Part shown: one piece after another, positions 25,086 through 48,532 of the stretch
How the letters are laid out: every line of letters begins with the position of its first letter
Position numbering within the stretch: position 1 is the first letter of the stretch
NCBI GenBank assembly: GCA_964345975.1
Contig: CAYFSS010000003.1
Coordinates: 25,392-89,391 of the forward strand
Direction of reading: 5' to 3'
Origin: an uncultured Oscillospiraceae bacterium
Lineage (GTDB): Bacteria > Bacillota > Clostridia > Saccharofermentanales > Fastidiosipilaceae
DNA: 64,000 nucleotides
Program-made: the position numbers and the translations under genes
The notes under the pieces: model-generated
What the model was told of the DNA's origin: nothing
Databases searched by the model: none
What the model saw: the letters and a program-made list of their open reading frames with translations, nothing else

Positions 25086-26576
25086 ATGGGCAGGTATATT
25101 CTTGTAAGAATACTGAAATCGCTTTTGTCCATCGCAATCGTCGTATCGGTGGTTGTCGTTATGGTGTACAAATTAGTTCCTACGTCGAAAGTTTTTGAGA
25201 ATGACGAGGGATATCGTAAACTCAAAGCGAATCAGAAATACGTTTATAGTTTGAGTAAACTCGAGAATCTCGGCTATCTCGACTACCTTACTGCAGGTGA
25301 GATGTTTGCGAATGAGTCCGAAGCTTCATTTCAAGATCACAGACCCGGTGATGAAGAATACGATCGTGTTCTCCAGGTATACCGTGATAAAGGCTACACA
25401 GTCGAAGAATTGACGCAGAACGATGATCTCCGCGGTACTTGGATTGCCTATCGTTATTACAATGTCTTTGAGCTCATCGGAGGCTTTTTCTCGCGACTCA
25501 TCGTTATTGATAACCCCAACGCCATTCAGGACCCAAATAATCCCGATATGGAGAGAGGTTATAGTTGGGAGAAAGATCATAACGGTAATTACGCACTTAC
25601 CTGTGAAGGTTGCACGAACCTGTACCAGATCTATTTCAACAATAAATTCCCTTTCATTCACCAGAATGCTGTAAAGCTGTACTTCGGTGAATCTTATCCG
25701 ACGCATTCCGGTGTCCATACCATGGACGTCATCAGTCGCGGACAAGGGCGTACAGTACGCGTCGAACAAACGTTCCCAACCGGCGAAGTACTGGAAATTC
25801 CTATTGATCAGCACACGCGACAATACAAGTTCCAACCGGATCGTTTGGATGTCAATAAGTATGGTGATAGCCATTATGCAACGACAGGAAGTTTCTACGA
25901 ATCACCCTCAATGATCGGGACCTCGTATATCTTCGGCATTCTGTCATTGATCTTAGCGTATTTGTTCGCTTTGCCGGCAGGTCTAGCCATGGCGCGTAAG
26001 AAGGGTTTGTGGGTCGATAAGATTGGTATTGCATACATCAACTTGATCTTGGCGTTGCCATCGCTGGCACTCATCTTCTTCATTAAATATGCAGGCTTTG
26101 GTTTCGGACTTCCTGATAAGTTCCCTGAATTGGGTTTCAATAATATCAAGTCTTATATCATGCCCCTATTGGCTTTAACGATCATGAATACCCCAGGAAT
26201 TATGATGTGGATCCGTCGCTATATGGTTGACCAAGAAAGTGCGGACTACGTCAAGTTTGCAAGATCTAAGGGCTTGACCGATAAAGAGATTTCAAAGCGT
26301 CATATCCTGAAGAATGCCATTATTCCGATCATTAATGGTCTACCGTCATCGGTCATTCTGGCTATTAGTGGAGCTATCGTCACGGAGTCAATGTTTGCCG
26401 TTCCGGGCATGGGTAAGATGTTGCCTGATGCGATCAATGGAGCCAATAACAATATGGTCATTACCCTGACCTTCATCTTTACGTCGCTAGCGGTCTTCTC
26501 TGTATTCCTTGGTGACCTACTCATGACCGTCGTCGATCCTCGAATCTCGCTTGATATCAAGGAAGGAGTACGCTAA
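25086..26576 (+). CDS. oppB: Oligopeptide ABC permease OppB with an enlarged first external loop
   Basis: 496 aa. TM1 is followed by about 245 aa of hydrophilic sequence, then the canonical permease core with the EAA-type loop VKFARSKGLTDKEISKRHILKNAIIPIING. Confidence 0.85.
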   Translation: MGRYILVRILKSLLSIAIVVSVVVVMVYKLVPTSKVFENDEGYRKLKANQKYVYSLSKLENLGYLDYLTAGEMFANESEASFQDHRPGDEEYDRVLQVYRDKGYTVEELTQNDDLRGTWIAYRYYNVFELIGGFFSRLIVIDNPNAIQDPNNPDMERGYSWEKDHNGNYALTCEGCTNLYQIYFNNKFPFIHQNAVKLYFGESYPTHSGVHTMDVISRGQGRTVRVEQTFPTGEVLEIPIDQHTRQYKFQPDRLDVNKYGDSHYATTGSFYESPSMIGTSYIFGILSLILAYLFALPAGLAMARKKGLWVDKIGIAYINLILALPSLALIFFIKYAGFGFGLPDKFPELGFNNIKSYIMPLLALTIMNTPGIMMWIRRYMVDQESADYVKFARSKGLTDKEISKRHILKNAIIPIINGLPSSVILAISGAIVTESMFAVPGMGKMLPDAINGANNNMVITLTFIFTSLAVFSVFLGDLLMTVVDPRISLDIKEGVR

Positions 26577-26578
26577 AC

Positions 26579-27598
26579 ATGACAAATACGAATTATCCAG
26601 GACCTGTGGGGATGCAAGGTGAACCTAAAGGTATCGTCAAACATGACCCGGCTAATGTCCCTGAAATAGATCCGGCAATCGAAAAAGAAATGTTTGAAGC
26701 TGCGGAATTTGATGCTACTGCTTCAGAGCATATATCGACTCCCGTGTATTCTTATTGGCAGAGCGTCAGACGCCGCTTCTTCCAGTCTAAAATTGCTATC
26801 CTCATGTTGATTGTCTTTGCGGTCATTGTCTTAATGTCGCTCATCCATCCTGAGATCTCGGGCTATGATCACATGAATGCGGAACACATTAACGATAAGT
26901 CTCAGTGGTTCTTGCGTCCTTCCGTTGACCATCCTTTCGGGACGGACGATATTGGCCGAGACATGTTCTCACTCGTATGGGCAGGAGCTCGCACCAGTCT
27001 CTTTATTTCCTTCACGGCTACGATCATCACCGTCGTAATCGGTGTTTTGGTAGGTATGTGGTGGGGCTTTTCTAAGCGAGTCGACGCCATCATGATCGAG
27101 GTCTACAACGTTGTTTCCAACATACCGTTCACCTTAATCGTCATGATCTTGAGCTTTGCCCTTGGAGGCGGTGTTTGGCAATTGATCTTTGCCCTATCGT
27201 GTACGTCATGGGTAGGAACAGCCTACTTTGTCCGAGTCCAGGTTATGATCCGTCGCGATCGAGAGTACAACCTAGCTTCGAAGTGTCTTGGATCTTCAAA
27301 CTGGACAATTATCAAGAACAATATTTTCCCTTATCTTATCTCCGTCCTTGTCACCGTTATTTCTCGTAATGTCCCGTCCTTTATCTCGTATGAGGTCTTC
27401 CTAAGTTTCATCGGTGTTGGACTTTCCGAGAGAATTGCTTCCTTGGGTCGCGTGGTTCAAACGAGCTCCAAGCACATGCAGTCTGCGCCATACCTCTTCA
27501 TCATCCCGCTCACGGTAACTGCGCTTATTTCAATCTCGCTCTACTTGATTGGTCAGACACTCGCCGATGCAAGTGATCCGCGCAATCACATGCTGTAG
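26579..27598 (+). CDS. oppC: Oligopeptide ABC permease OppC
   Basis: Motif HPFGTDDIGRDMFSLVWAGARTSL and EAA-type loop ASKCLGSSNWTIIKNNIFPYL. Confidence 0.9.
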   Translation: MTNTNYPGPVGMQGEPKGIVKHDPANVPEIDPAIEKEMFEAAEFDATASEHISTPVYSYWQSVRRRFFQSKIAILMLIVFAVIVLMSLIHPEISGYDHMNAEHINDKSQWFLRPSVDHPFGTDDIGRDMFSLVWAGARTSLFISFTATIITVVIGVLVGMWWGFSKRVDAIMIEVYNVVSNIPFTLIVMILSFALGGGVWQLIFALSCTSWVGTAYFVRVQVMIRRDREYNLASKCLGSSNWTIIKNNIFPYLISVLVTVISRNVPSFISYEVFLSFIGVGLSERIASLGRVVQTSSKHMQSAPYLFIIPLTVTALISISLYLIGQTLADASDPRNHML

Positions 27599-27609
27599 GG
27601 AGGACTTCT

Positions 27610-28689
27610 ATGACACAACTCAATCAAGATAAATATATTCTTCAAGTTAAAGACCTCGAGGTTAAATTCCAGGTCCGAGACAGGGAGCTTACAGCTATTC
27701 GCAATGTTTCCATGGACTTCGAACGCAACAAGGTTGTTGCTATTGTCGGTGAATCCGGCTCCGGTAAATCAGTCTTTACAAAGACCTTCTCCGGTATGCT
27801 CGATAACAATGGTCGAGTATCAAACGGTGAAATCTGGTTTGAAGGTCAGAACTTAGCTAATCTGAAGCGTAACAAAGATTGGTTACCCATCCGTGGTAAG
27901 AAAATTGCAACCATTTTCCAGGACCCGCTGACTTCACTGAATCCTGTACGCACCATCGGTTATCAGATATCTGAAGTTATCGTGAAGCACCAAGGCAAGA
28001 GCAAGGGTGAAGCGAAAGAAATGGCGATCGACCTCATGCGTCGTGTCGGCCTAAGCAAGCCTGAACAACGTTACAATGAGTATCCCTTCCAATATTCCGG
28101 CGGTATGCGCCAACGTATTGTCATCGCCATCGCCTTGGCTTGTCGTCCTAAGATCCTTATTTGTGACGAGCCCACGACTGCGCTTGATGTAACAACGCAG
28201 GCTCAAATCATTGCCCTTATCAAGGAACTCGGTGAAGAGTACGGCTTCACAACGATCTACATCACGCATGACTTGGGAGTTGTTGCGAATGTCGCCGATA
28301 TTGTAGCCGTCATGTACGGTGGTCAGATCATCGAATACGGGACCGTTGAAGAGATCTTCTATGACCCACGACATCCTTATACATGGGGGCTCCTCTCGTC
28401 GTTACCTCAACTTGGTAATCCTCACGAGCCGCTGTATGCAATTCCGGGTACGCCACCATCTCTGTTTGAGAAGATCTCAGGTGACAGCTTCGCACCCCGA
28501 AGTGAGCATGCTTTGAAGATTGACTTCGAAGAGGAACCGCCAATGTTCCAAGTCTCCGACACACACTTTGCAAAGACTTGGCTCTTGGATCCGCGTGCAC
28601 CGAAGGTTGAGAAGCCTGTTATCATCCGTGATCTCCACGAGAAGTTAAAATATCTGAGTTCGCAGGGAGGAGTTTATAGTGATATCTAA
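27610..28689 (+). CDS. oppD: Oligopeptide ABC ATP-binding protein OppD
   Basis: Walker A GESGSGKS, signature YSGGMRQR, Walker [13 protein letters not shown]-loop ITHDL and oligo C-terminal motif HPYTWGLL. Confidence 0.93.
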
Positions 28690-29656
28690 GAATGAAGAAC
28701 GCGAGGTCCTCCTCGAAGTCAATAATCTCAACGTCACGTTTGAAGCCGGCAAGAAGATTGTCGAAGCCGTCAAAGATGCCAGCTTCAAGATCTACCGTGG
28801 TGAAACGTTCGCCCTCGTCGGTGAATCAGGCTCCGGTAAGACAACGATTGGGCGGTCGATCATTCGTCTGAATTCAACGCAAGGTGGAGATATCATCTTC
28901 AAGGGTAAGAAGATCAACAAGAATCTTTCCAAATCTGAAGCTCGCCAACTCGTGCGTGAGGTGCAAATGATATTCCAAGATCCTGCTGCTTCACTCAACG
29001 AGCGTGTTACGGTTGACCACTGTGTCGCTGAGGGTATCGATAATTTCCATCTCTATGAAAACAAGGAGGATCGTGCAAGGAAGGTCGATGAGACCTTGGA
29101 GGCAGTGGGTCTTCTCCCGGAGCATAAGTCTCGTTATCCTCACGAGTTCTCCGGGGGTCAGCGTCAGCGTATCGGGATCGCTAGGGCGATTATCATGGAA
29201 CCGGAATTTATCATCGCTGATGAGCCTATTTCCGCACTTGATGTTTCCATTCGCGCCCAGGTCATGAACCTCTTGAATACGTTCAAAGAAGAGCGTGGCT
29301 TGACCTATCTCTTCATCGCCCATGACCTTTCCGTCGTGCGTTATTTCTCCGATCGGATCGCTGTTATTCGTGAAGGTGAGATTGTTGAGGTCGCTGAGAC
29401 CGATGAACTCTTTGCCCATCCACTCCATCCTTATACGCTCTCACTCTTGCAGTCAGTCCCGGTTCCGGATCCTCAGATTGAGAAGTCTAAGAGTCTCATT
29501 ACCTATGAACCGAAGGTCTACGGTCCGAATGAGACATTAGAACTACAGGAAGTCGTCCCGGGTCATTATGTTTATTGCACGAAGGACGAGCTCACTCACT
29601 ATCATGAGCGCTACGAACGTCTCCAACAATCTCGTATTTCTAACCCCATCTATTAG
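28679..29656 (+). CDS. oppF: Oligopeptide ABC ATP-binding protein OppF
   Basis: Walker [10 protein letters not shown], signature FSGGQRQR, Walker [13 protein letters not shown]-loop IAHDL and [11 protein letters not shown] start after GGGAGGAG. Confidence 0.93.
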
Positions 29657-31113: not shown

Positions 31114-31189
<76 letters not shown>

Positions 31190-36166: not shown

Positions 36167-37460
36167 TAGAGCGATCGAAAGTGTAGAGATTCTCTGCGTC
36201 GGGACAGAACTCCTGATGGGGCAGATCGTCAACACAAATGCATCAAACCTGGCGAAGAAACTGGCAGATCTAGGGCTATACAGCTATTACCAAACCGTTG
36301 TCGGTGACCATCCGGGACGTATGGCTGAGGCCATGCGCCTAGGGCTTGAACGTTCCGATGCTGTGATCATCACGGGGGGCTTGGGGCCAACCGATGATGA
36401 TATTTGTATGGAAATCGCTGCTGAGGTTGCAGGCGAGGCGTTAGTCTTCGATGAAGCTGCGTGGGAGACGATTTCGCAGTACTTCGATCGTCAAGGACGA
36501 GAAGCAACTGAGAATAATCGGAAGCAGGCTTTTAGACCCAAGAATGCAATTTCCATCCCCAATAATAACGGCACTGCACCGGGCGCCATTGTCCCGGTTG
36601 AGGTTCGGGAGAAAACGAGCTATTTGATCTTGCTTCCCGGCCCCCCGCGTGAAAATGCTCCGATGTTTGATGACTTTGTAGCACCGTTCTTAACGGCTCA
36701 TAGGCAGCATGATCTGCGAACGGTCTTTGTCCATTTTGTGGAAATCGGTGAATCCAATCTTGTTACTATTCTCAAAGATTTAATCGCCGAACAAACGAAC
36801 CCCACGATTGCTCCCTATGCATCAGAGGGGAAAGTGACGCTTCGCCTGACGCAGTCGGTTGATGACGGGAATGAAGAAGACCTCATCGCACCCGTCCTAG
36901 ATGTCATTGATGATCGTTTAGGGCGATACATCTTTGAAATTGGGGATCGTGATGTATACCAAGTCCTGCTCGATCATATGACGGAAACAGGCGATACGCT
37001 GTCGATCGTTGAAAGCTGTTCAGGGGGGCGCTTGCTTTCGTCATTCATTCAACATTCGGGAGCTTCGGAGGTGATTGAGGGTGGGCTCGTGACCTATTCC
37101 AATCGTTCGAAGAACGAGCAGTTGGGCATTTCGATGGACTTCATTGAGACGCACGGTGCGGTCAGTGAAAAGGTCGCCCGTGCGATGGCAGAGGCTTGTC
37201 GAGATTGTTTTGGCACAACCTATGCACTGTCAACGACAGGGATAGCCGGTCCTGACGGTGGCACCAACGAAAAGCCCGTAGGAACTACCTACCTTGCTCT
37301 GGCCGGTCCCCGGGGCACATCGGTTATTCATCGCGTGTTCCGAGGCAACAGAGATAAGAATCGTCGTCTAGCTGCAATCAATGCAGCGACGATGCTGTGG
37401 CGTCATTTCCAAGAAGAGGGCAAGATTACCTTCGGGAAGGAGCTACGCTTTGAAGAATAG
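36156..37460 (+). CDS. cinA: CinA-family competence/damage-inducible protein (PncC-type nicotinamide-nucleotide amidase domain)
   Basis: N-terminus ILCVGTELLMGQIVNTN and C-terminal domain SIVESCSGG...TTGIAGPDGG. The ATG at 36156 follows ACGGAG; the ORF is open from 36111. Confidence 0.9.
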   Translation: MNADRAIESVEILCVGTELLMGQIVNTNASNLAKKLADLGLYSYYQTVVGDHPGRMAEAMRLGLERSDAVIITGGLGPTDDDICMEIAAEVAGEALVFDEAAWETISQYFDRQGREATENNRKQAFRPKNAISIPNNNGTAPGAIVPVEVREKTSYLILLPGPPRENAPMFDDFVAPFLTAHRQHDLRTVFVHFVEIGESNLVTILKDLIAEQTNPTIAPYASEGKVTLRLTQSVDDGNEEDLIAPVLDVIDDRLGRYIFEIGDRDVYQVLLDHMTETGDTLSIVESCSGGRLLSSFIQHSGASEVIEGGLVTYSNRSKNEQLGISMDFIETHGAVSEKVARAMAEACRDCFGTTYALSTTGIAGPDGGTNEKPVGTTYLALAGPRGTSVIHRVFRGNRDKNRRLAAINAATMLWRHFQEEGKITFGKELRFEE

Positions 37461-37464
37461 ACCG

Positions 37465-40170
37465 GTGGAATCACGGATCAGAGGATTGCGTTTGCCCGGA
37501 GGCCCGGCCAATAGACCGGATCGAGATCAAGTCAGAGAAATGTTTGCTCGAGGCGAAGGTCTCGACCCTCGCGAACTGACAATTTATAAGGACTCTGAAT
37601 CTCTCTTGAATGATATTCAAGAGAAACGTGTCTTTATGCCAACGGATGGCGGTACAGATTTAGAAGAATCCTTGAAAGAACTAGATGCTGCGCTTGAAGA
37701 AGCTGCTCGTTCGAGAAGAGCTGATGCTCGGCCGGAAATGAACGCTTATCCGGAACCTCAGGTCATGACCGAAGAACCCCAACAGAAAACAAAGACGCCT
37801 TTGTGGAAAAGGATCATTAAATCTGACCTTGCGCCTGTTTCAGAATCTGTAGAATATCCCGATGAAACGACAAGAGACGAAGAGGATGTGTTCCTCGACG
37901 AAACGGTTCAGACGCAACATGATGCTCTGACACACGCTCAATCTCCGGAGTCTAGATCTGATGTCTCGATCGACGGAGGTGATGAAACAGAGAATTCACT
38001 GAATCAGGATGATTCAATGCCTCGGGATGCCATAAGAGTTCCGATTCGAGAAGGTGCCGGCCAGTTCGATGCTTCTCAATCATCGCTTCATGATAGCGCT
38101 CGTGTCGATGCACGTGATAGCGGTCGTGACGATGTGCGCGCTGTTGGTCGTGTCGATATACGTGATAGCGGTCGTGTCGATGTCCGCGATATTAGTCCAA
38201 TAGAGGCTCAAGATAAAGATCAGGCCAGAACACAAGACAGCGCTCGATTTACTACCCATGAGATCGCGCGGGTCTATACTGAGGATCAAAGCCAAAATCA
38301 AAAGCCAGCCATTCGACGGATTGAAGCTGAACGTAAAGAACCACCGGAACCTAGTGATCGGGCAGTGGAGGAAGGAACGGCGGTTTTCTTATCCCTTGCA
38401 GCATCGCAAAGCGACTCCATCAGTGGTACGGTAACTGCTCCTATGGCGGAGCCTGCGGTCACAATGGCTACTTCGCGTTTGCCCAAGATTACAAAGGAGC
38501 ATTTAGATGGAACAAACTCGGACGGCAACGATCACAACAAAGTGACTAATACAGGCGAAGAGGTCCATGAACGAACGGAAGAGAATGGCAACAGAGCCTC
38601 TCGTTTGGACCACCTAACAAGGTCGACGCTCATCCTCATCGTAGGACTCATCTTAAGTAAGCTTACCGGGCAGATACGCCAAGTCTTGTACCCCCATGTT
38701 TTTGTCCAGAAACATTTAACAGACGCTTACGTTCAGGGATTCCTCATTCCGGATTTTATCTATGAACTCTTAGTCGGCGGTTCAATCCAAGCTGCGATTG
38801 TCCCAACGCTTGCCTCCGCCCTGGGAACCAAAGAAGAGCGGAAGACATGGCATTCCGTATCGATCTTCATTTCCTTTGTTTCCGTCATCATGCTCCTAAC
38901 CCTAGTCATAGCGGAAGTCTTCACACCTCAACTCTTGGCACCCTTCGTTAAGATTGAGAATTTAGAGCTAACGGCAAGAATGGCCAGAGTGCTCTTCCCA
39001 CAAACCTTCTTCATGATGGGTGCTGCCTTGAGCATCGGAATTATCAATGCATATAGTAATTTCATAAAGACAAGTTTCGGACCTGCTATCTACAATTCAC
39101 TCTTTGCTGCAAGCCTCCTCATTTTGGGAACTTCAAGTGAACAAGGTTTGATTCATGTCGGCATCGGAGTGAGCCTAAGTGCTCTAGCTTACTTCTTATT
39201 CCAAATCTTTCTCGGCCGCAAAGAAATCTCACCTTATCGTTTCCGTCTGGATTTAAAGGATAGAGGCTTTAGATTGTTGCTGCTCCTGGCAGTTCCTATT
39301 TTATTTTCCTCTTCGATTGCCCATTTAAATACGATGGTCCTCCATGGCTTCACGAAATCGATGGAAGCCGGGGCTGCGACGGCGCTGAATCAGGCAAACT
39401 CGGTTTGGCTCTTGCCTTACGGTGTCTTTACCGTTGCCATCGGACAAGCCATGTTACCTACCCTTTCAACCTTGATTGGTCGCGAGAAGGACGAGGCTGC
39501 TTCGTCCTTGTTATCCGCTTCGATAAGACGGATGCTATTTTTTGCAATTCCGTCAGCCATCACATTCTTCATCCTCAGGGAAGACTTGATGCTGGGCATC
39601 TTTATATGGCGATTTGATGGCTATGATGCTCAAATTGAAGTTACCCGATTAGCGGCTAGACTCTTACAGTGGTATTGCATTTCCATCGTTGTCCAAGGGT
39701 TCATCTATCTCTATAACTATGCTTTCTATGCAATGAAAGTCACGTATTTACCCCTAATTAACGGTATTTTATCACTTGCGTTGACCTTGGCGGTTGGAAG
39801 TTACATAACTCAACCTAATGTATTGGGGGCCGAGGGTCTATCCGTTTCCTATGCCCTTTCAGGTACCATAACAGCCCTGATTCTTGGCATCCTCTTCAAG
39901 TTGCGATTTAGAAAACTTGCCCCGCGCTTCTTAACACGAGCATGGGGGATCTTCTTTGTGAAAATGATCCCAATGACCGTGGTGATGGTCGGGGCGCTAT
40001 ACTTGATGGAAACCTACTTTACCCCGGCTGCCGTGGGCGGCAAGATCCAACAAATCGTTTGGCTTGGACTACGATTCGGCGTCGCCTTTGGAATCTGGTT
40101 CATCGGTGGAAAGCTGTTGAAGCTCGACCTTAAAGTCGAGCCGCAAACACCAAAGAAGGCCGCTTTATAA
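37465..40170 (+). CDS. murJ: MurJ/MviN-like lipid II flippase (MOP superfamily) with a 360-385-aa low-complexity N-terminal extension
   Basis: The frame is continuously open from 37381. Candidate starts are GTG 37465 and ATG 37540. The polytopic core of about 515 aa begins near 38617 and carries MurJ-like segments GGSIQAAIVPTL and ALNQANSVWLLPYGVFTVAIGQAMLPTLS. Confidence 0.7.
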   Translation: MESRIRGLRLPGGPANRPDRDQVREMFARGEGLDPRELTIYKDSESLLNDIQEKRVFMPTDGGTDLEESLKELDAALEEAARSRRADARPEMNAYPEPQVMTEEPQQKTKTPLWKRIIKSDLAPVSESVEYPDETTRDEEDVFLDETVQTQHDALTHAQSPESRSDVSIDGGDETENSLNQDDSMPRDAIRVPIREGAGQFDASQSSLHDSARVDARDSGRDDVRAVGRVDIRDSGRVDVRDISPIEAQDKDQARTQDSARFTTHEIARVYTEDQSQNQKPAIRRIEAERKEPPEPSDRAVEEGTAVFLSLAASQSDSISGTVTAPMAEPAVTMATSRLPKITKEHLDGTNSDGNDHNKVTNTGEEVHERTEENGNRASRLDHLTRSTLILIVGLILSKLTGQIRQVLYPHVFVQKHLTDAYVQGFLIPDFIYELLVGGSIQAAIVPTLASALGTKEERKTWHSVSIFISFVSVIMLLTLVIAEVFTPQLLAPFVKIENLELTARMARVLFPQTFFMMGAALSIGIINAYSNFIKTSFGPAIYNSLFAASLLILGTSSEQGLIHVGIGVSLSALAYFLFQIFLGRKEISPYRFRLDLKDRGFRLLLLLAVPILFSSSIAHLNTMVLHGFTKSMEAGAATALNQANSVWLLPYGVFTVAIGQAMLPTLSTLIGREKDEAASSLLSASIRRMLFFAIPSAITFFILREDLMLGIFIWRFDGYDAQIEVTRLAARLLQWYCISIVVQGFIYLYNYAFYAMKVTYLPLINGILSLALTLAVGSYITQPNVLGAEGLSVSYALSGTITALILGILFKLRFRKLAPRFLTRAWGIFFVKMIPMTVVMVGALYLMETYFTPAAVGGKIQQIVWLGLRFGVAFGIWFIGGKLLKLDLKVEPQTPKKAAL
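38092..38187 (+). repeat. In-frame 4 x 24-nt imperfect tandem repeat (consensus GATAGCGGTCGTGTCGATGTNCGY, encoding D-S-G-R-V-D-V-R)
   Basis: The four units are DSARVDAR, DSGRDDVR, AVGRVDIR and DSGRVDVR, read directly from 38092-38115, 38116-38139, 38140-38163 and 38164-38187. Confidence 0.9.
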
Positions 40171-44168: not shown

Positions 44169-44408
44169 ATGACGAATCAAGAAATTCTCGATCGTATGGC
44201 TGAGATCCTCGTTGATCAGCTTGGGGTTGATGAAGACGAAGTGACAATGGATGCTAATTTCATTGAAGATCTCAATGCCGACTCGCTTGATATTGTCGAA
44301 CTTGTGATGAATCTAGAACAAGAATTCGACCTTATGATCCCCGATGAAGAAGCAGAGAATATCAGGACAGTCGGAGACGCTGTTAACTTCATCCAAGAGA
44401 ATCTTTAA
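44169..44408 (+). CDS. acpP: Acyl carrier protein
   Basis: 79 aa with the phosphopantetheine attachment motif [21 protein letters not shown]. Confidence 0.95.
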
Positions 44409-44434
44409 GCTACATTATTTAGATATTTGAGAAG

Positions 44435-44470
44435 CGCAAGACTGATCCATCGAGAGGTCTTGCGTTTTTT
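44435..44470 (+). terminator. Rho-independent terminator after acpP
   Basis: CGCAAGAC-N14-GTCTTGCG followed by TTTTTT at 44465-44470. Confidence 0.8.
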
Positions 44471-44534: not shown

Positions 44535-46058
44535 ATGTCGAAAAAACTGCCTGACAAGAAAAACAAAGGCAATGTAAGTGATGACGGACTACAAGCGTTG
44601 GACGTTCACCGTGTAAGTTCAGTAGATGATTCTACCGAGTCGGAGTTCTTGGAAGAAGATATGTCTGACGATGAAGCGTTCAAGCCTACGGATCGGGTTG
44701 AAATTAGAACCATTGAAGCGGACGAGGTTGCGGGAGCAAACGATGAGTCCGAATCTGAGATAGAGACTATAGATGAGCAAATCGATGAGTCCGACAACGG
44801 TCAGACCCTTGATGATGTTGAAGAACCTGATTCATTAAGCGCCGTGAATATAGAATCTGCGATTGAGTCGAGTGAGGATTCTCTCTCAGCTATGACGCAA
44901 GAAGATGAAGAATCTGAGGGGATGACCACGATCGAATCCACAGAAGTCATCTATCAGGAAGGTGATCAAGTCATCAAAGAGTCTGTGGACGTTGTCACTG
45001 TGGCATCGGTTGATGAAATACCGCAGGAAAGCGAACAAGAGGATCTGACAGCATCCGATGATATAGGGGTTGTACACGACGCCGAGTATACGGAGAACGA
45101 AGAAGCCGTCTCTGAAGAAGAGGCCTCGGACATTGAAGATGATGTAGCAGAGGATGGGGTGCAAGTTATTGCAAAGTATCCCTATGGTCTTACATCAAAA
45201 CCTCGCGTAACCGCGGGTCTTCGCAATGTTCTCTTAGTCTTATTTGTTCTTTGGATTGGGTTTGTGTTTGTAGCGCCCTTTATCTTACCCCAAGGCCTGG
45301 ATACCCCCAACTTAGACCTCCTAACAGGTGAGCATTTACTTGGCACTGACAGTGTCGGTAGAGACGTTTTGTCGACGACTTTGAAGGCGGGTAGGACTTC
45401 GCTGATTTATGCTCTAATCCCGACCCTTATCGGTTTGTTTGGAATTCTTTTGACTTATAGGAATTGGAGTGATCCATCTTCCACATATTCAAGAGCCTAC
45501 CTCATGCGCCCAATGCCATTCACGGTTATTAGCATCATCGCCTCATTTGCAATGGGCTTATTCTTGCCTCGCACATGGGTTTATTTCATCATCGTAGCTT
45601 TCTTATCACTTGTCTTGTGGTTGCGTGAGGCATTTGCTGTTGCTCATTATATAAAAGCCTATAGACAGGCTCGTCCTAATCAATTTAGTTACTATTTGGG
45701 AGCTCGAGAGTTAGATAACATTCGCTATACCTATGGGCAAGAAGTGCGTGCAGCTTTCTTAAACGGAGTTCTCAATGTCTTCTTAAGGGCTTATCTCATC
45801 ATTAGTGTTTTACCCTTTACCGATAACAGTCTATCGGTGCCACAGCGTGCGGATTGGGCCAGTCATATCATCTTGCCTCTGCGACAAGGGGTAAGCATCT
45901 TAGATCCAAATGTGCTGCCACATTTTATTGGTTGGGCGATACCATTGGTTTTGGTCATTCTTATCATTCTCCTAAATCTCAGAGTAGCTAGGCGACAGAA
46001 GGTTCTATCGACCATGCGAATGCGAGCTAATCACTGGCGCGCCGGAGATGAGGTCTAA
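44535..46058 (+). CDS. Divergent OppC/DppC-like ABC permease-fold membrane protein with a roughly 215-aa polyacidic N-terminal extension; function unknown
   Basis: Strong RBS GGAGGTG. Residues 1-215 are rich in D, E and S. TM1 is LLVLFVLWIGFVFVAPFIL, followed by the OppC hallmark HLLGTDSVGRDVLSTTLKAGRTSL. Compare OppC in this window, HPFGTDDIGRDMFSLVWAGARTSL. Five or so further hydrophobic segments and a degenerate EAA-type loop follow. Confidence 0.75.
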   Translation: MSKKLPDKKNKGNVSDDGLQALDVHRVSSVDDSTESEFLEEDMSDDEAFKPTDRVEIRTIEADEVAGANDESESEIETIDEQIDESDNGQTLDDVEEPDSLSAVNIESAIESSEDSLSAMTQEDEESEGMTTIESTEVIYQEGDQVIKESVDVVTVASVDEIPQESEQEDLTASDDIGVVHDAEYTENEEAVSEEEASDIEDDVAEDGVQVIAKYPYGLTSKPRVTAGLRNVLLVLFVLWIGFVFVAPFILPQGLDTPNLDLLTGEHLLGTDSVGRDVLSTTLKAGRTSLIYALIPTLIGLFGILLTYRNWSDPSSTYSRAYLMRPMPFTVISIIASFAMGLFLPRTWVYFIIVAFLSLVLWLREAFAVAHYIKAYRQARPNQFSYYLGARELDNIRYTYGQEVRAAFLNGVLNVFLRAYLIISVLPFTDNSLSVPQRADWASHIILPLRQGVSILDPNVLPHFIGWAIPLVLVILIILLNLRVARRQKVLSTMRMRANHWRAGDEV

Positions 46059-47594
46059 ATGGCAAAATTTAAGTATGAGGATTTCATTCTTCGATTTACC
46101 AATCTAAAGTATGAGTCACATGACCCTGACGTTACCGGATTAGCGGATTTCTTTTTAGGCATTCGCTACGGTGAGTCTTTAGGCCTAACGTCGGAAACCA
46201 ATTCCGGCAGTGATACAGTCCGTGACATGCTCTTTGGCACTATAAAAGCCGACCAAGGACAGATCATGTACTACGGGCGCAGCATCGATGAAGTTGCTCC
46301 CATTTATATGCGTGAGAATTACCGTAATTTGCGTCGTGAACGCAACCGCTTAGGTCGTATTCAGGAAAAAAGAAACCGGTTGGAAGCAGAATTGCAGGCG
46401 GCCGGGAATAATGTAAGCGATGATCTCCGGCAAGCCGTGGAAAATGCCAGAGGGGCTTTTTTAGCACAATATTTCAATTTTGTGCAATTGCAAGGTGGCT
46501 TTGTTCAACTCGATGAACCCGATATTTTAGCGCCTTATTACAGCAAACGATACGACTTAGCCCTCGAATATAGGGACGTCGTAGCTGAGATTGAAGAGGC
46601 GGACGCGCTCTATCGAGATCTCCAAGCCGAGCGAACGGAGCAAGAGGATAATCCGCGCTTGGATCAGCGTATGTTTGAATTATCCGAGGAAATGGATGAA
46701 CTGCAATCTGAGCTTGTCGAGATCCAGTGGGAGCTTGAGGAAATCCTGGGCCTTATTCATAGCTGGAAGGAGCCATATCTTCATTCAGAAGAATTCTTGC
46801 GTCATGAACGTGAACTCGATGAGTCGATAAGTTTATTTCGTTTGACGCATGAAGAAAGAAGACATCTTTTCAGAGATCTACAGTATGTGCCTTCTTTCAG
46901 CCCCGATTTGTTTGACCCGGATCAGACCTTCGAAGAAGTACTTCAGGCCGGTTTGGTTTATCAAGGCCTGTTCAAAGCAGGGAAAGCATCGACTAAAGCG
47001 TATTTGCAGCAGATCCTTCAGATGCTCGATATGAAGGCTGAAGACTTGCAAAGACCTATAACGACTGCAACGAATTATGAAGCTTTCCGTTTATTGCTTG
47101 GGAGAAGTTTAGCCCTTCACCCGAAGCTCATTTATCTCGATGAACCGCTTCGTCATCTTTCGGAAGCCGATCGGGAAGCTGCCTATGAATTAATTTTGGA
47201 TCTTAGAGAAAATCGTGATTTGACCTTAATCATTGCTTCACAAGATGTGAAGACGCTTGCCGTCCTTACGGATCGTTGCGCTGTGCTATGCGAAGGGCAT
47301 CTTGTAGAGCTCTACAATACTCAATCGCTCATTGCGGCACCCTTTCATCCTTATACCGCTGCGCTGCTTGCCTCACACCCTGAGATGAACGGTCAAGAAG
47401 CGTGGACGAAGTTCCGTTTGAAGACCGATGAGGGTGACGGTTTGGATTTCCTATCGGAGGCTTGTCCTTTCAGTCCTCGCTGCCTCTATAGAGGGGAACT
47501 TTGTGTGCGAAATCCAGAACTCACGATGGCCGGGAGCGGTCATTTCTATGCCTGCCATTACCCGCTGTATGGACAAGGCCCGCAACGCGTCTAG
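46059..47594 (+). CDS. Degenerate OppD/F-like ABC nucleotide-binding-domain protein (predicted pseudo-ATPase) with a charged helical insertion and a C-terminal 4-Cys motif
   Basis: The ATG abuts the upstream TAA (46056-46061). It aligns by eye with OppF in this window: ILRFTNL...YGESLGLTSETNSGSDTV against LLEVNNL...[18 protein letters not shown]. Walker B is retained (KLIYLDEP). The signature is replaced (ATNYE) and the H-loop is ASQD. The C-terminus has PFHPYTAALL and CPFSPRCLYRGELC...YAC. Confidence 0.8.
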   Translation: MAKFKYEDFILRFTNLKYESHDPDVTGLADFFLGIRYGESLGLTSETNSGSDTVRDMLFGTIKADQGQIMYYGRSIDEVAPIYMRENYRNLRRERNRLGRIQEKRNRLEAELQAAGNNVSDDLRQAVENARGAFLAQYFNFVQLQGGFVQLDEPDILAPYYSKRYDLALEYRDVVAEIEEADALYRDLQAERTEQEDNPRLDQRMFELSEEMDELQSELVEIQWELEEILGLIHSWKEPYLHSEEFLRHERELDESISLFRLTHEERRHLFRDLQYVPSFSPDLFDPDQTFEEVLQAGLVYQGLFKAGKASTKAYLQQILQMLDMKAEDLQRPITTATNYEAFRLLLGRSLALHPKLIYLDEPLRHLSEADREAAYELILDLRENRDLTLIIASQDVKTLAVLTDRCAVLCEGHLVELYNTQSLIAAPFHPYTAALLASHPEMNGQEAWTKFRLKTDEGDGLDFLSEACPFSPRCLYRGELCVRNPELTMAGSGHFYACHYPLYGQGPQRV

Positions 47595-47655: not shown

Positions 47656-47803
47656 GCGCTCTTGTGATATGTTGATCATGAAGTCATTGGAATTTCGGTC
47701 TGACGTCGTCTGACGCTTGTTTGCTTTAGTATGACTTCGTCTGATGGTAACCCTCCTGCCTTATCTGCTTATTAGTTTATTGATACCCAAGAAAGGTGAA
47801 TTG

Positions 47804-48532
47804 ATGCAAAGAACGTTGCCCGAACAAATCCTGGCACCTCATTATGTCTTTCGTGATCTGTCGTTACTGCAAGAAGCACTGACGCATAGTTCTTGGGCTA
47901 ATGAACACCCGCCGACCCGTGACAATGAACGCTTGGAATTTTTGGGGGACGCCATTCTACAATTTCTTGCAACGGAAGCGCTTTATCTTGCTGATAATCA
48001 ATCTTCTGAAGGGCAAATGACAAGCCTCCGACAACTGATTGTGCGTGAAGAAGCTTTAGCTGCGGCAGCGGTGCGCTTGAATCTCGGCTCTCATCTATAC
48101 CTTGGTCAAGGTGAAATTGCCGGAGGAGGCTCGGCTAAGAGTTCTAATCTTGCAGATGCTTTTGAAGCCTTGCTTGCAGCGGTGTTTCTCGATGCGGAGA
48201 CAGCAGATGGAGCAGGTTTAGCTGCGGCTCGCCTGATCGCAAAACTTAGCTTAAAGCAAACCCTGGATGATGCTAGAGCAGGGAAGATTGTTGCAAATTA
48301 CAAATCTCAGTTTCTCGAATGGGTTCAAGAATTTCCTGACCGCAAACCTGTCACGTATAAGCTCGTTAAGCGAGAAGGTCCGGCGCATGAACCGATCTTC
48401 CATATGGTTCTTGAGATTGGGGACTATGTTGTAGCAAGGGCTCAGGCTTCGAGCAAGAAGCAAGCAGAACAAGCATTGAGTGAAATTGCTTGGAAGAAGC
48501 GAGCCGAGCTTGAGGAGGTTATCAAAGCGTGA
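47804..48532 (+). CDS. rnc: Ribonuclease III
   Basis: RNase III signature ERLEFLGDAIL and a C-terminal dsRBD (KSQFLEWVQ...GPAHEPIF). The ATG at 47804 follows GAAAGGTG; the ORF is open from 47744. Confidence 0.93.
   Translation: MQRTLPEQILAPHYVFRDLSLLQEALTHSSWANEHPPTRDNERLEFLGDAILQFLATEALYLADNQSSEGQMTSLRQLIVREEALAAAAVRLNLGSHLYLGQGEIAGGGSAKSSNLADAFEALLAAVFLDAETADGAGLAAARLIAKLSLKQTLDDARAGKIVANYKSQFLEWVQEFPDRKPVTYKLVKREGPAHEPIFHMVLEIGDYVVARAQASSKKQAEQALSEIAWKKRAELEEVIKA

What the first reader, a model, noticed from the sequence alone, without database searches (positions are those of the whole stretch)
46059..47594. The OppD/F homologue has degenerate catalytic motifs and is a predicted pseudo-ATPase
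I aligned it by eye with OppF from this same window. Walker [10 protein letters not shown] is replaced by SETNSGSDT (nt 46182-46217), so the lysine becomes Ser and the Mg-binding Thr becomes Asp. The signature FSGGQ is replaced by ATNYE (about nt 47067-47081). The H-loop IAHD becomes IASQD. Only Walker B (KLIYLDEP, nt 47124-47147) and the overall fold-defining hydrophobic pattern survive. The Opp-specific C-terminal segment PFHPYTAALL is also kept. Losing the Walker lysine, the signature and the switch His while staying full length is typical of regulatory pseudo-enzymes, not pseudogenes.
Basis: seen in the sequence. Interest (0 to 1): 0.75.

Follow-up and report, generated by a model that had tools for sequence, protein, structure and literature searches.

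The report
Catalytically dead OppF-like ABC protein
An uncultured Clostridia lineage keeps, under strong purifying selection, a peptide-transporter ATPase homologue that has lost every ATP-handling motif and sits beside an equally divergent permease homologue, so an ABC half-transporter seems to have been repurposed for a job that does not use ATP.

Summary
ORF 46059-47594 (511 aa) is an Opp/Dpp-family ABC nucleotide-binding protein. Formal alignments place SETNSGSDT on Walker A (Lys to Ser, Ser/Thr to Asp) and ATNYE on the signature SGGQ. The Q-loop Gln becomes Ser, the D-loop SALD becomes RHLS and the H-loop His becomes Gln. Only Walker B (LIYLDEP) survives, and no alternative P-loop exists anywhere in the protein.

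It is not a pseudogene. Four orthologous contigs give dN 0.07-0.10 with saturated dS, so it is as conserved as rnc, pgsA and smc.

- A roughly 180-aa four-helix insertion, shared with a catalytically intact OppF subfamily from which this protein derives.
- A translationally coupled upstream partner (44535-46058), a divergent OppC-type permease with a long acidic N-terminal tail.
- Retention of the exact DppF [4Fe-4S] cysteine pattern (C-x5-C-x6-C-x16-C).
- The gene pair is a lineage-specific insertion between acpP and rnc, absent from the nearest relatives.

The best reading is a dedicated, ATP-independent OppC*/OppF* membrane complex. What it does is not known. I rate it a new variant of a known kind, of moderate interest.

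The parts
44535..46058 (+). Partner gene: a divergent OppC/DppC-type permease homologue (OppC*), 507 aa. Its stop codon TAA (46056-46058) abuts the ATG of the pseudo-ATPase.
   Evidence: NCBIfam Opp4C E 2e-8, well below the curated cutoff. BLASTP to the window's OppC gives 29% identity over 136 aa, E 2e-8. hhalign against an OppC profile gives probability 98.6%, E 1.3e-15. Pfam BPD_transp_1 is not detected. The gene is found only in the lineages that carry the pseudo-ATPase and always lies directly upstream of it with no gap.
44535..44642 (+). Conserved N-terminal peptide of the partner (residues 1-36).
   Evidence: Invariant positions M1 S2 K4 P6 G12 N13 L19 V24 R26 V27 S29 S33 S36 across five sequences, although the region that follows is not conserved.
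44643..45179 (+). Acidic, poorly conserved, length-variable linker of the partner (residues about 37-215).
   Evidence: Residues 1-215 hold 71 D/E against 11 K/R. The alignment across orthologues is gapped and weak. AF2 pLDDT is about 30.
45180..46055 (+). Conserved six-helix membrane core of the partner (residues about 216-507). It includes the family motif HLLGTDSVGRD (45333-45365) and the coupling-helix region RQARPNQFSYYLGARELDNIR (45663-45725).
   Evidence: Hydropathy segments at 223-256, 287-309, 326-371 (two helices), 406-429 and 458-488, with high conservation across orthologues. The alignment to OppC/DppC/NikC homologues keeps H267 G270 T271 D272 G275 R276 D277 and G389.
46059..47594 (+). 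OppF-derived pseudo-ATPase (OppF*), 511 aa.
   Evidence: A GGAG-containing ribosome-binding site lies 8-17 nt upstream, inside the partner gene.
46191..46217 (+). Degenerate Walker A: SETNSGSDT (residues 45-53) in place of GESGSGK[ST]T.
   Evidence: The orthologues show SETNSGADT, SELNSGSDT and SETNSGSDT.
46293..46838 (+). Insertion of about 180 residues (residues about 79-260) between the Walker A lobe and the Q-loop. It is predicted to form four long helices.
   Evidence: It is absent from the window's OppD and OppF and present at the same position in the OppF-like proteins P0128, P0131, P0219, P0265 and others. AF2 predicts helices 91-118, 121-150, 154-194 and 199-240 with pLDDT of 82-96. 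It has no Pfam or PDB sequence match.
46881..46907 (+). Degenerate Q-loop: QYVPSFSPD. The position of the Gln is S279.
47067..47081 (+). Degenerate signature: ATNYE (residues 337-341) in place of FSGGQ.
47124..47147 (+). Walker B retained: KLIYLDEP (D361, E362).
47151..47162 (+). Degenerate D-loop: RHLS in place of SALD.
47229..47249 (+). Degenerate H-loop: IIASQDV (His to Q395). It is invariant in all five lineages.
47304..47504 (+). Opp/Dpp-specific C-terminal domain (oligo_HPY, residues 416-482), including PFHPYTAALL.
   Evidence: Pfam 44.3 bits against a cutoff of 27.1. TIGR01727 54.2 bits against a cutoff of 37.6.
47463..47555 (+). Four-cysteine motif C469-x5-C475-x6-C482-x16-C499, a putative [4Fe-4S] site.
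   Evidence: They are invariant in all orthologues, including the lineage at 63% identity. The spacing is the same as the E. coli DppF ligands C293/C299/C306/C323 (PMC12136057).

Best explanation
The two abutting genes encode a dedicated, non-catalytic complex, the 'C-F half' of an Opp/Dpp-type translocator. OppC* (44535-46058) is the membrane subunit and OppF* (46059-47594) is its cytoplasmic partner.

OppF* arose from a catalytically normal OppF subfamily that already carried a roughly 180-aa helical insertion. After the pair was inserted between acpP and rnc in one Clostridia lineage, it diverged fast and lost Walker A, the Q-loop, the signature, the D-loop and the H-loop. It was then frozen by purifying selection.

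It should not bind or hydrolyse ATP in the canonical way, so the complex should not pump peptides. What selection preserves are the parts needed to fold and assemble:
- the RecA-like and helical fold;
- the C-terminal Opp domain with its four [4Fe-4S] cysteines, which hold E. coli DppBCDF together;
- the insertion;
- on the permease side, the membrane core, the extracytoplasmic GTDxxGRD motif and a conserved N-terminal peptide on a long acidic tether.

The most likely role is a membrane-anchored scaffold or sensor whose assembly may depend on the Fe-S cluster.

Shown: homology, motif loss, selection, gene coupling, lineage-specific gain and cysteine retention. Inferred: no ATP use, physical pairing of the two proteins, Fe-S binding, and a scaffold or sensor role.
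For: Motif loss holds in three independent alignments, and no alternative P-loop exists.

The AF2 model is confident (pLDDT 86.3, pTM 0.83). It superposes on E. coli OppF, E. coli DppF and 4fwi with a TM-score normalised to the target of 0.80-0.86.

Purifying selection is strong. dN is 0.07-0.10 with saturated dS, and regional omega is 0.004-0.07 wherever dS is finite. The degenerate Walker A lobe is the slowest-evolving part (dN 0.03-0.09). Amino-acid identity of 85-88% is at least that of rnc, smc, pgsA and rimO on the same contigs.

The partner is an OppC homologue. It occurs only with OppF* and always abuts it stop-to-start. In E. coli DppBCDF the C subunit contacts the F subunit specifically (PMC12136057).

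The origin lies in an insert-bearing OppF subfamily with intact motifs. HMMER aligns those proteins to the query in a single stretch across the insertion. They sit downstream of a canonical OppD in peptide-uptake loci.

The stem branch is long. Core identity to any catalytic member is 25-31%, against 45-63% among the catalytic members and 86-92% within the clade.

The gain is lineage-specific. The nearest relatives (Ffh 66-67% identical) have the same recA-recX-rimO-pgsA-acpP-rnc-smc-ftsY-ylxM-ffh order with nothing between acpP and rnc.

The cysteine pattern is identical to the DppF [4Fe-4S] ligands and is invariant. The window's own OppD and OppF lack it.
Against: - There is no biochemical evidence of any kind.
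- Physical interaction of the two proteins is inferred only from adjacency and from the C-F pairing in E. coli.
- A single permease gene and a single NBD gene would have to homodimerise, whereas Opp/Dpp translocators are normally B-C/D-F heterotetramers.
- The AF2 model of the partner is unusable (pLDDT 42.7), and Pfam does not recognise its permease domain.
- Retention of Walker B Asp-Glu is unexplained if nothing is bound in the pocket.
- The clade is known from only five metagenomic lineages. One of them is a 1-kb contig at 2.6-fold coverage with stop codons at its edge.
Confidence: 0.55

Rival explanations
1. OppC* and OppF* are alternative subunits. They replace OppC and OppF in the organism's canonical OppBCDF (window 25086-29656) to give OppB-OppC*/OppD-OppF* complexes. 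These would dock the binding protein OppA but could not complete an ATPase cycle. They would act as a dominant-negative brake on peptide import or as a peptide or OppA receptor that signals through the insertion and the acidic tail.
For: A complete canonical oppABCDF operon lies 15 kb upstream in the same window. Opp/Dpp translocators are obligate B-C/D-F pseudo-heterodimers (PMC12136057), and the pseudo-pair supplies exactly one C-type and one F-type subunit. The extracytoplasmic GTDxxGRD motif of OppC is invariant in OppC*.
Against: OppC* and OppF* share only 24-29% identity with the window's OppC and OppF. OppF* keeps an Fe-S domain that the window's OppD lacks, so the D-F interface is not obviously compatible. 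The pair is not linked to the opp operon. Both composite ATP sites of such a hybrid would be defective.
Confidence: 0.2
2. OppF* works away from its permease-like neighbour, as an accessory subunit of some other machine. Precedents are the Opp-related NBDs PhnK (C-P lyase) and SapD (Trk K+ uptake; the SapD role is from my own knowledge).
For: Foldseek places PhnK among the best structural matches. SapD is the top NCBIfam hit, though far below its cutoff. The conserved position is immediately upstream of rnc-smc-ftsY.
Against: Strict stop-to-start abutment and co-occurrence with OppC* in every contig argue for a shared complex. Neighbourhood with rnc and smc is explained by a single insertion event into a conserved housekeeping array.
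Confidence: 0.1
3. The protein still binds or hydrolyses a nucleotide, or another anionic ligand or metal, through a remodelled pocket, and the pair is still a transporter.
For: Walker B Asp-Glu is retained. The degenerate P-loop lobe is the most constrained part of the protein, which suggests the pocket still does something.
Against: Five of the six ATP-handling motifs are lost together. This includes the P-loop Lys, two of the three P-loop Gly residues, and an Asp in place of the Mg-ligand Ser/Thr. No ABC protein is known to be active with such a combination (my own knowledge).
Confidence: 0.07
4. It is a decaying pseudogene or an annotation artefact.
For: Catalytic motifs are lost. The phyletic range is narrow.
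Against: An intact 511-codon ORF of identical length is present in four lineages whose synonymous sites are saturated. dN/dS is far below 0.1. The replacement residues themselves are conserved, and the AF2 fold is confident.
Confidence: 0.02

Closest known systems
Opp/Dpp-type ABC importer ATPases OppF/DppF (E. coli 8z21_D and 8z1v_D; T. tengcongensis 4fwi)
   Same: Same fold (TM-score normalised to the target 0.80-0.86). Same C-terminal oligo_HPY domain. Same C-x5-C-x6-C-x16-C cysteine pattern as the DppF [4Fe-4S] site. Adjacent to a C-type permease homologue, as DppF pairs with DppC.
   Different: Walker A, Q-loop, signature, D-loop and H-loop are all lost. It carries a roughly 180-aa helical insertion. 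There is no OppA, OppB or OppD in the operon. Core identity is only 24-31%.
Insert-bearing OppF subfamily (metagenomic P0128, P0131, P0219, P0265 and others). The NCBIfam Mollicutes OppD model (MMSYN1_0167) aligns with P0128 across the region that holds the insertion.
   Same: An insertion of similar length at the identical position, with shared landmarks (YYG..AP.Y before it, GG[FL] in the middle, and D[ES][GS]I.L.RL..E.R after it). HMMER aligns them to the query in a single stretch.
   Different: Those proteins keep GESG[SC][14 protein letters not shown] and SHD. They follow a canonical OppD in peptide-uptake loci.
Heterodimeric ABC transporters with one degenerate nucleotide-binding site (TM287/288, BmrCD, TAP1/2, CFTR; review PMC7756269)
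   Same: Catalytic residues of an NBD are lost while the protein remains functional.
   Different: In those systems one consensus site remains. It uses Walker A/B and the H-loop of one NBD with the signature of the other, and the degenerate site still binds ATP. Here both the Walker A and the signature of the same NBD are gone, so neither composite site could be a consensus site.
Opp-family NBDs recruited to non-transport roles: PhnK/PhnL of C-P lyase (7z15-7z19); SapD supporting Trk K+ uptake (my own knowledge)
   Same: An Opp/Dpp-related NBD used outside peptide import. PhnK is among the best fold matches.
   Different: PhnK and SapD retain ATP-binding motifs and are not paired with a degenerate permease.
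P0155, an independently degenerate insert-bearing OppF-like protein (metagenome)
   Same: Same insertion. Loss of the Q-loop Gln, the signature (TDEQ), the Walker B Glu (DQ) and the H-loop His.
   Different: It keeps an intact Walker A (GEAGSGKST), lacks the cysteine tail, and has a different sequence lineage (29% core identity).

Membership tests
ABC ATPase (PF00005 ABC_tran), as a catalytic member | Homology and fold of the ABC nucleotide-binding domain | tested here: met
   Pfam 35.3 bits against a cutoff of 25. Foldseek E 8e-18 to OppF 8z21_D.
ABC ATPase (PF00005 ABC_tran), as a catalytic member | Walker A GxxGxGK[ST] | tested here: not met
   SETNSGSDT at the aligned position, and no P-loop anywhere in the protein.
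ABC ATPase (PF00005 ABC_tran), as a catalytic member | Q-loop glutamine | tested here: not met
   IFQDP aligns with VPSFS, so Gln becomes S279.
ABC ATPase (PF00005 ABC_tran), as a catalytic member | Signature LSGGQ | tested here: not met
   ATNYE at the aligned position, and no SGG in the protein.
ABC ATPase (PF00005 ABC_tran), as a catalytic member | Walker B hhhhDE | tested here: met
   LIYLDE, with D361 and E362.
ABC ATPase (PF00005 ABC_tran), as a catalytic member | H-loop histidine and D-loop SALD | tested here: not met
   SQD (Q395) and RHLS.
ABC ATPase (PF00005 ABC_tran), as a catalytic member | ATP binding and hydrolysis | not testable with these tools
   Needs purified protein.
Opp/Dpp/Nik-type NBD | C-terminal oligo_HPY domain | tested here: met
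   PF08352 44.3 bits against 27.1. TIGR01727 54.2 bits against 37.6.
Opp/Dpp/Nik-type NBD | Four-Cys [4Fe-4S] ligand pattern of DppD/DppF/OppD | tested here: met
   C469/C475/C482/C499 have the same spacing as DppF C293/C299/C306/C323. This is the sequence pattern only; cluster binding was not tested.
Opp/Dpp/Nik-type NBD | Score above the curated cutoff of a named equivalog (OppD, OppF, DppD, DppF, NikE, SapD) | tested here: not met
   The best hit is SapD, 90 bits against 627. OppF gives 70 bits against 540.
Insert-bearing OppF subfamily | Helical insertion of about 135-200 aa between the YYG..AP.Y strand and the Q-loop | tested here: met
OppC/DppC-type permease (the partner, 44535-46058) | Homology to the OppC membrane domain, including the GTDxxGRD motif | tested here: met
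   hhalign probability 98.6%. The motif is invariant.
OppC/DppC-type permease (the partner, 44535-46058) | Pfam BPD_transp_1 or OppC_N above threshold | tested here: not met
   No hit. NCBIfam Opp4C gives 33.7 bits against 350.
OppC/DppC-type permease (the partner, 44535-46058) | Type I importer TMD fold | tested here: inconclusive
   AF2 pLDDT is 42.7. Six hydrophobic segments are consistent with the fold.
ABC transporters with one degenerate site | One consensus ATP site is retained | tested here: not met
   Walker A and the signature of the same NBD are both lost. A homodimer would have no functional site, and a hybrid with OppD would have none with a full motif set.
Pseudogene | Disrupted ORF or relaxed selection | tested here: not met
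   Intact ORF in four lineages, with omega far below 0.1.
Anti-phage defence ABC/SMC-like ATPases | Significant match to a defence-system model and a defence-island context | tested here: not met
   Only weak generic hits (mad3 27.8 bits, LmuB 17 bits). The context is a housekeeping array.

The most novel reading that the evidence does not exclude
The pair is a 'fossil' half-translocator turned into a redox- or oxygen-sensitive membrane switch. OppF* has no nucleotide cycle, but its retained [4Fe-4S] domain controls whether it docks on OppC*. Oxidation of the cluster dissociates E. coli DppBCDF in the same way. The four-helix insertion and the tethered N-terminal peptide of OppC* would then recruit or release other proteins. 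This would be an ABC architecture that signals through cluster state instead of ATP.
Probability: 0.12. Interest if true: 0.8.

Novelty: new variant of a known kind. Interest (0 to 1): 0.55.

Why it matters
Degenerate ABC sites are well known, but always beside a working site. A bacterial ABC nucleotide-binding protein that has lost five of its six ATP-handling motifs, yet stays under strong selection with its own divergent permease, would show that the ABC importer scaffold can be kept for an ATP-independent purpose.

It also offers a natural experiment on which parts of an Opp/Dpp NBD are needed for assembly rather than catalysis: the Fe-S domain, the coupling groove and the insertion. In addition, it draws attention to an uncharacterised roughly 180-aa insertion present in many catalytically intact OppF proteins.

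The limits are a narrow distribution (a few uncultured Clostridia lineages) and no functional data.

Tried and rejected
- **Species-representative genomes.** The GTDB species-representative scan returned only ordinary Opp-like ATPases and no orthologue.
- **JGI metagenomes.** The scan with clade-specific patterns (IIASQDV, DRCAVLCE) found no orthologue.
- **Hits of 650-750 aa.** The long 'homologues' in the word-indexed search are ordinary tandem double-NBD proteins, not insert-bearing relatives.
- **AF2 of the permease-like partner.** The model had pLDDT 42.7 and was not used for fold search.
- **The insertion alone.** Only chance coiled-coil hits against PDB sequences. No Pfam domain in the insertion of the parent family.
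- **PADLOC.** Weak generic ABC/SMC-like matches, rejected as a defence system because of the context and the permease partner.
- **Rfam on the whole window.** Only a tRNA was found.
- **Promoter and terminator scan.** Not informative beyond chance. The hairpin after acpP was seen by eye.
- **Literature.** Searches for OppF insertions and ABC pseudo-ATPases found no description of such a protein.
- **Near-identical contigs.** L009 and L010 gave too few substitutions for an unsaturated dN/dS (4 synonymous to 1 non-synonymous).
- **Exact-sequence look-up.** Taxonomy was inferred from Ffh relatives.
Full report

The ORF at 46059-47594 (+) encodes 511 residues with no internal stop. Pfam recognises the Opp/Dpp-specific C-terminal domain oligo_HPY (residues 416-482, 44.3 bits, cutoff 27.1). 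It also finds a split ABC_tran match (35.3 bits, cutoff 25).

Three independent alignments give one register. They are MAFFT with the window's own OppD (27610-28689) and OppF (28679-29656), phmmer against solved M. tuberculosis OppD, and MAFFT with 13 further relatives. In that register:
- Walker A GESGSGK[ST]T is SETNSGSDT (residues 45-53). Lys becomes Ser, the Mg-ligand Ser/Thr becomes Asp, and two of the three glycines are lost.
- The Q-loop Gln is S279.
- The signature FSGGQ is ATNYE (residues 337-341).
- The D-loop SALD is RHLS.
- The H-loop His is Q395.
- Walker B LIYLDEP is intact.

No P-loop-like or SGG-like string exists elsewhere in the protein or in the other frames, so a register shift cannot restore the motifs. 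Of 242 of the nearest family members retrieved, only this clade lacks both Walker A and the signature.

**2. It is a functional gene, not a relic.**

Orthologues of identical length (511 aa, 85-88% identity) occur on four further metagenomic contig lineages. Nei-Gojobori estimates give dN of 0.07-0.10 while synonymous sites are saturated. Wherever dS is finite, omega is 0.004-0.07.

The protein is at least as conserved as rnc, smc, pgsA and rimO on the same contigs. The N-terminal lobe that carries the dead P-loop is the slowest-evolving part (dN 0.03-0.09). The helical subdomain around the former signature is the fastest (dN 0.10-0.16). The replacement residues are themselves conserved, for example IIASQDV in all lineages.

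AlphaFold2 gives a confident model (pLDDT 86.3, pTM 0.83). It superposes on E. coli OppF, E. coli DppF and the T. tengcongensis DppD NBD, with a TM-score normalised to the target of 0.80-0.86.

**3.

(a) *An insertion.* Residues about 79-260 have no counterpart in the window's OppD or OppF. They are predicted to form four long helices: 91-118, 121-150, 154-194 and 199-240. An exhaustive HMMER search of 1.84 billion representative proteins shows that the best full-length, single-stretch relatives are OppF-like proteins of 445-536 aa with an insertion at exactly the same place. Examples are P0128, P0131, P0219 and P0265. They share landmarks: YYG..AP.Y before the insertion, GG[FL] in the middle, and D[ES][GS]I.L.RL..E.R after it. 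They also keep fully intact catalytic motifs. Two of them lie directly downstream of a canonical OppD in peptide-uptake loci. The NCBIfam model for Mollicutes OppD (MMSYN1_0167) aligns with P0128 across the region that holds the insertion. The insertion matches no Pfam family and no solved structure by sequence.

The pseudo-ATPase is therefore a degenerate offshoot of an insert-bearing, catalytically normal OppF subfamily. Over core columns the catalytic members are 45-63% identical to one another, while the pseudo-clade is only 25-31% identical to any of them. Within the pseudo-clade identity is 86-92%. That pattern indicates a long stem branch followed by constraint.

(b) *A partner.* The upstream ORF 44535-46058 (507 aa) ends with TAA immediately before the ATG at 46059. 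A GGAG ribosome-binding site sits inside its 3' end. This abutment is conserved in every contig that reaches far enough.

The protein has three regions:
- a conserved N-terminal peptide of 36 residues;
- an acidic linker of variable length. Residues 1-215, which include the 36-residue peptide, hold 71 D/E against 11 K/R;
- a well-conserved six-helix membrane core.

It is a remote OppC/DppC homologue, by BLASTP to the window's OppC (E 2e-8), NCBIfam Opp4C (E 2e-8) and hhalign (probability 98.6%). It keeps the family's HLLGTDxxGRD motif and the glycine of the coupling-helix region, but has QFS where other members have EAA. It is found only in the lineages that carry the pseudo-ATPase. In the E. 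coli DppBCDF structure the C subunit contacts the F subunit specifically (PMC12136057). The two genes therefore correspond to one cognate 'C-F half' of a translocator.

(c) *Fe-S ligands.* C469, C475, C482 and C499 are invariant, also in the lineage at 63% identity. Their spacing, C-x5-C-x6-C-x16-C, is that of the [4Fe-4S] ligands of E. coli DppF (C293/C299/C306/C323). Mutating those ligands or oxidising the cluster disassembles DppBCDF (PMC12136057). The window's canonical OppD and OppF lack these cysteines.

(d) *A lineage-specific gain.* The window comes from an uncultured Clostridia (Bacillota) lineage. Its Ffh is 62-67% identical to those of named Clostridia, Clostridiaceae and Eubacteriales MAGs. 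The two nearest relatives examined share the order recA-recX-rimO-pgsA-acpP-rnc-smc-ftsY-ylxM-ffh but have nothing between acpP and rnc. All carriers have the pair exactly there. A more distant fragment at 63% identity also lies directly upstream of rnc. That fragment is on a 1-kb, low-coverage contig with stop codons at its edge, so it carries little weight. No orthologues were found in the GTDB species-representative genomes or in JGI metagenomes.

**4. Mechanism.**

*Shown:* homology to OppF and OppC, loss of five of the six ATP-handling motifs, purifying selection, conserved gene coupling, retention of the Fe-S cysteines and of the insertion, and lineage-specific acquisition.

*Inferred from established ABC enzymology:* without the P-loop Lys, with Asp at the Mg-ligand position, and without the Q-loop Gln, the signature and the H-loop His, canonical ATP binding and hydrolysis are not expected. 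Walker A and the signature of the same NBD are both lost. Neither composite site could therefore be a consensus site, whether in a homodimer or in a hybrid with a normal OppD. This distinguishes the case from the well-known ABC transporters with a single degenerate site (PMC7756269).

*My best reading (confidence about 0.55):* a dedicated OppC*/OppF* membrane complex that no longer transports and serves as a scaffold or sensor. Its assembly possibly depends on the Fe-S cluster. The insertion and the tethered N-terminal peptide are candidate interaction surfaces.

*Rivals:*
- Subunit swapping into the canonical OppBCDF encoded 15 kb upstream (0.2).
- An OppF* role independent of OppC*, as for PhnK or SapD (0.1).
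- A remodelled but still active pocket (0.07). This would explain the retained Walker B and the strong constraint on the P-loop lobe.
- A pseudogene (0.02), which effectively excludes.

**5. Comparison and novelty.**

By fold and domain content the protein belongs to the Opp/Dpp NBD family and to its insert-bearing OppF branch. It fails the defining catalytic features of an ABC ATPase and scores far below every curated equivalog cutoff. Partial degeneracy occurs sporadically in the family. P0155 is one example, SapD-like proteins have LSEGE in place of the signature, and P0137 has TQD in place of the H-loop. Complete loss together with a dedicated degenerate permease was not found elsewhere in my searches or in the literature searched. 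I class it as a new variant of a known kind.

Interest is moderate at 0.55. The case is clean, well supported and unusual for ABC biology. It is confined to a few uncultured lineages, and there is no evidence on what it does.

Noticed in passing
window 37381-40170 (+): A 929-aa ORF whose C-terminal part looks like a multi-pass membrane protein, possibly a MurJ-type flippase; I judged that by eye from the translation and did not test it. It carries a low-complexity N-terminal extension of about 400 aa with degenerate repeats of the type RVDxRDSGRxDVR. Together with the acidic tail of OppC* and the extended OppB, this suggests that long disordered N-terminal extensions on membrane proteins are a trait of this lineage.
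   Followed up: no
window 25086-26576 (+): The canonical OppB-like permease is 496 aa, with BPD_transp_1 only at residues 295-488. It therefore carries a long N-terminal extension compared with typical OppB proteins of about 300 aa (that typical length is from my own knowledge).
   Followed up: no
window 27610-29656 (+): The window's canonical OppD and OppF lack the four-cysteine [4Fe-4S] motif found in E. coli DppD/DppF and M. tuberculosis OppD, whereas the pseudo-ATPase keeps it.
   Followed up: partly
window 44170-44470 (+): A small acpP gene (44170-44409, PP-binding in the orthologous contig) is followed by a GC-rich hairpin and a T-run (about 44436-44470). The OppC*/OppF* pair probably starts its own transcript.
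   Followed up: partly
window 47744-48532 (+): The rnc ORF is 262 aa from the first ATG but 241-243 aa in orthologous contigs. The true start is probably the Met at 47804.
   Followed up: no
P0155 (loci L012-L014): An unrelated metagenomic insert-bearing OppF-like protein has independently lost the Q-loop Gln, the signature (TDEQ), the Walker B Glu (DQ), the H-loop His and the cysteine tail, but keeps Walker A. Degeneration of this subfamily has therefore happened more than once.
   Followed up: partly
Insert-bearing OppF subfamily (P0128, P0131, P0219, P0265; loci L011, L021): Many catalytically intact OppF proteins carry a helical insertion of about 135-200 aa between Walker A and the Q-loop. 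It has no Pfam domain and no solved structure, and my literature searches found no description of its role.
   Followed up: partly
window 31117-31189 (-): A single tRNA gene is the only Rfam match in the window.
   Followed up: no
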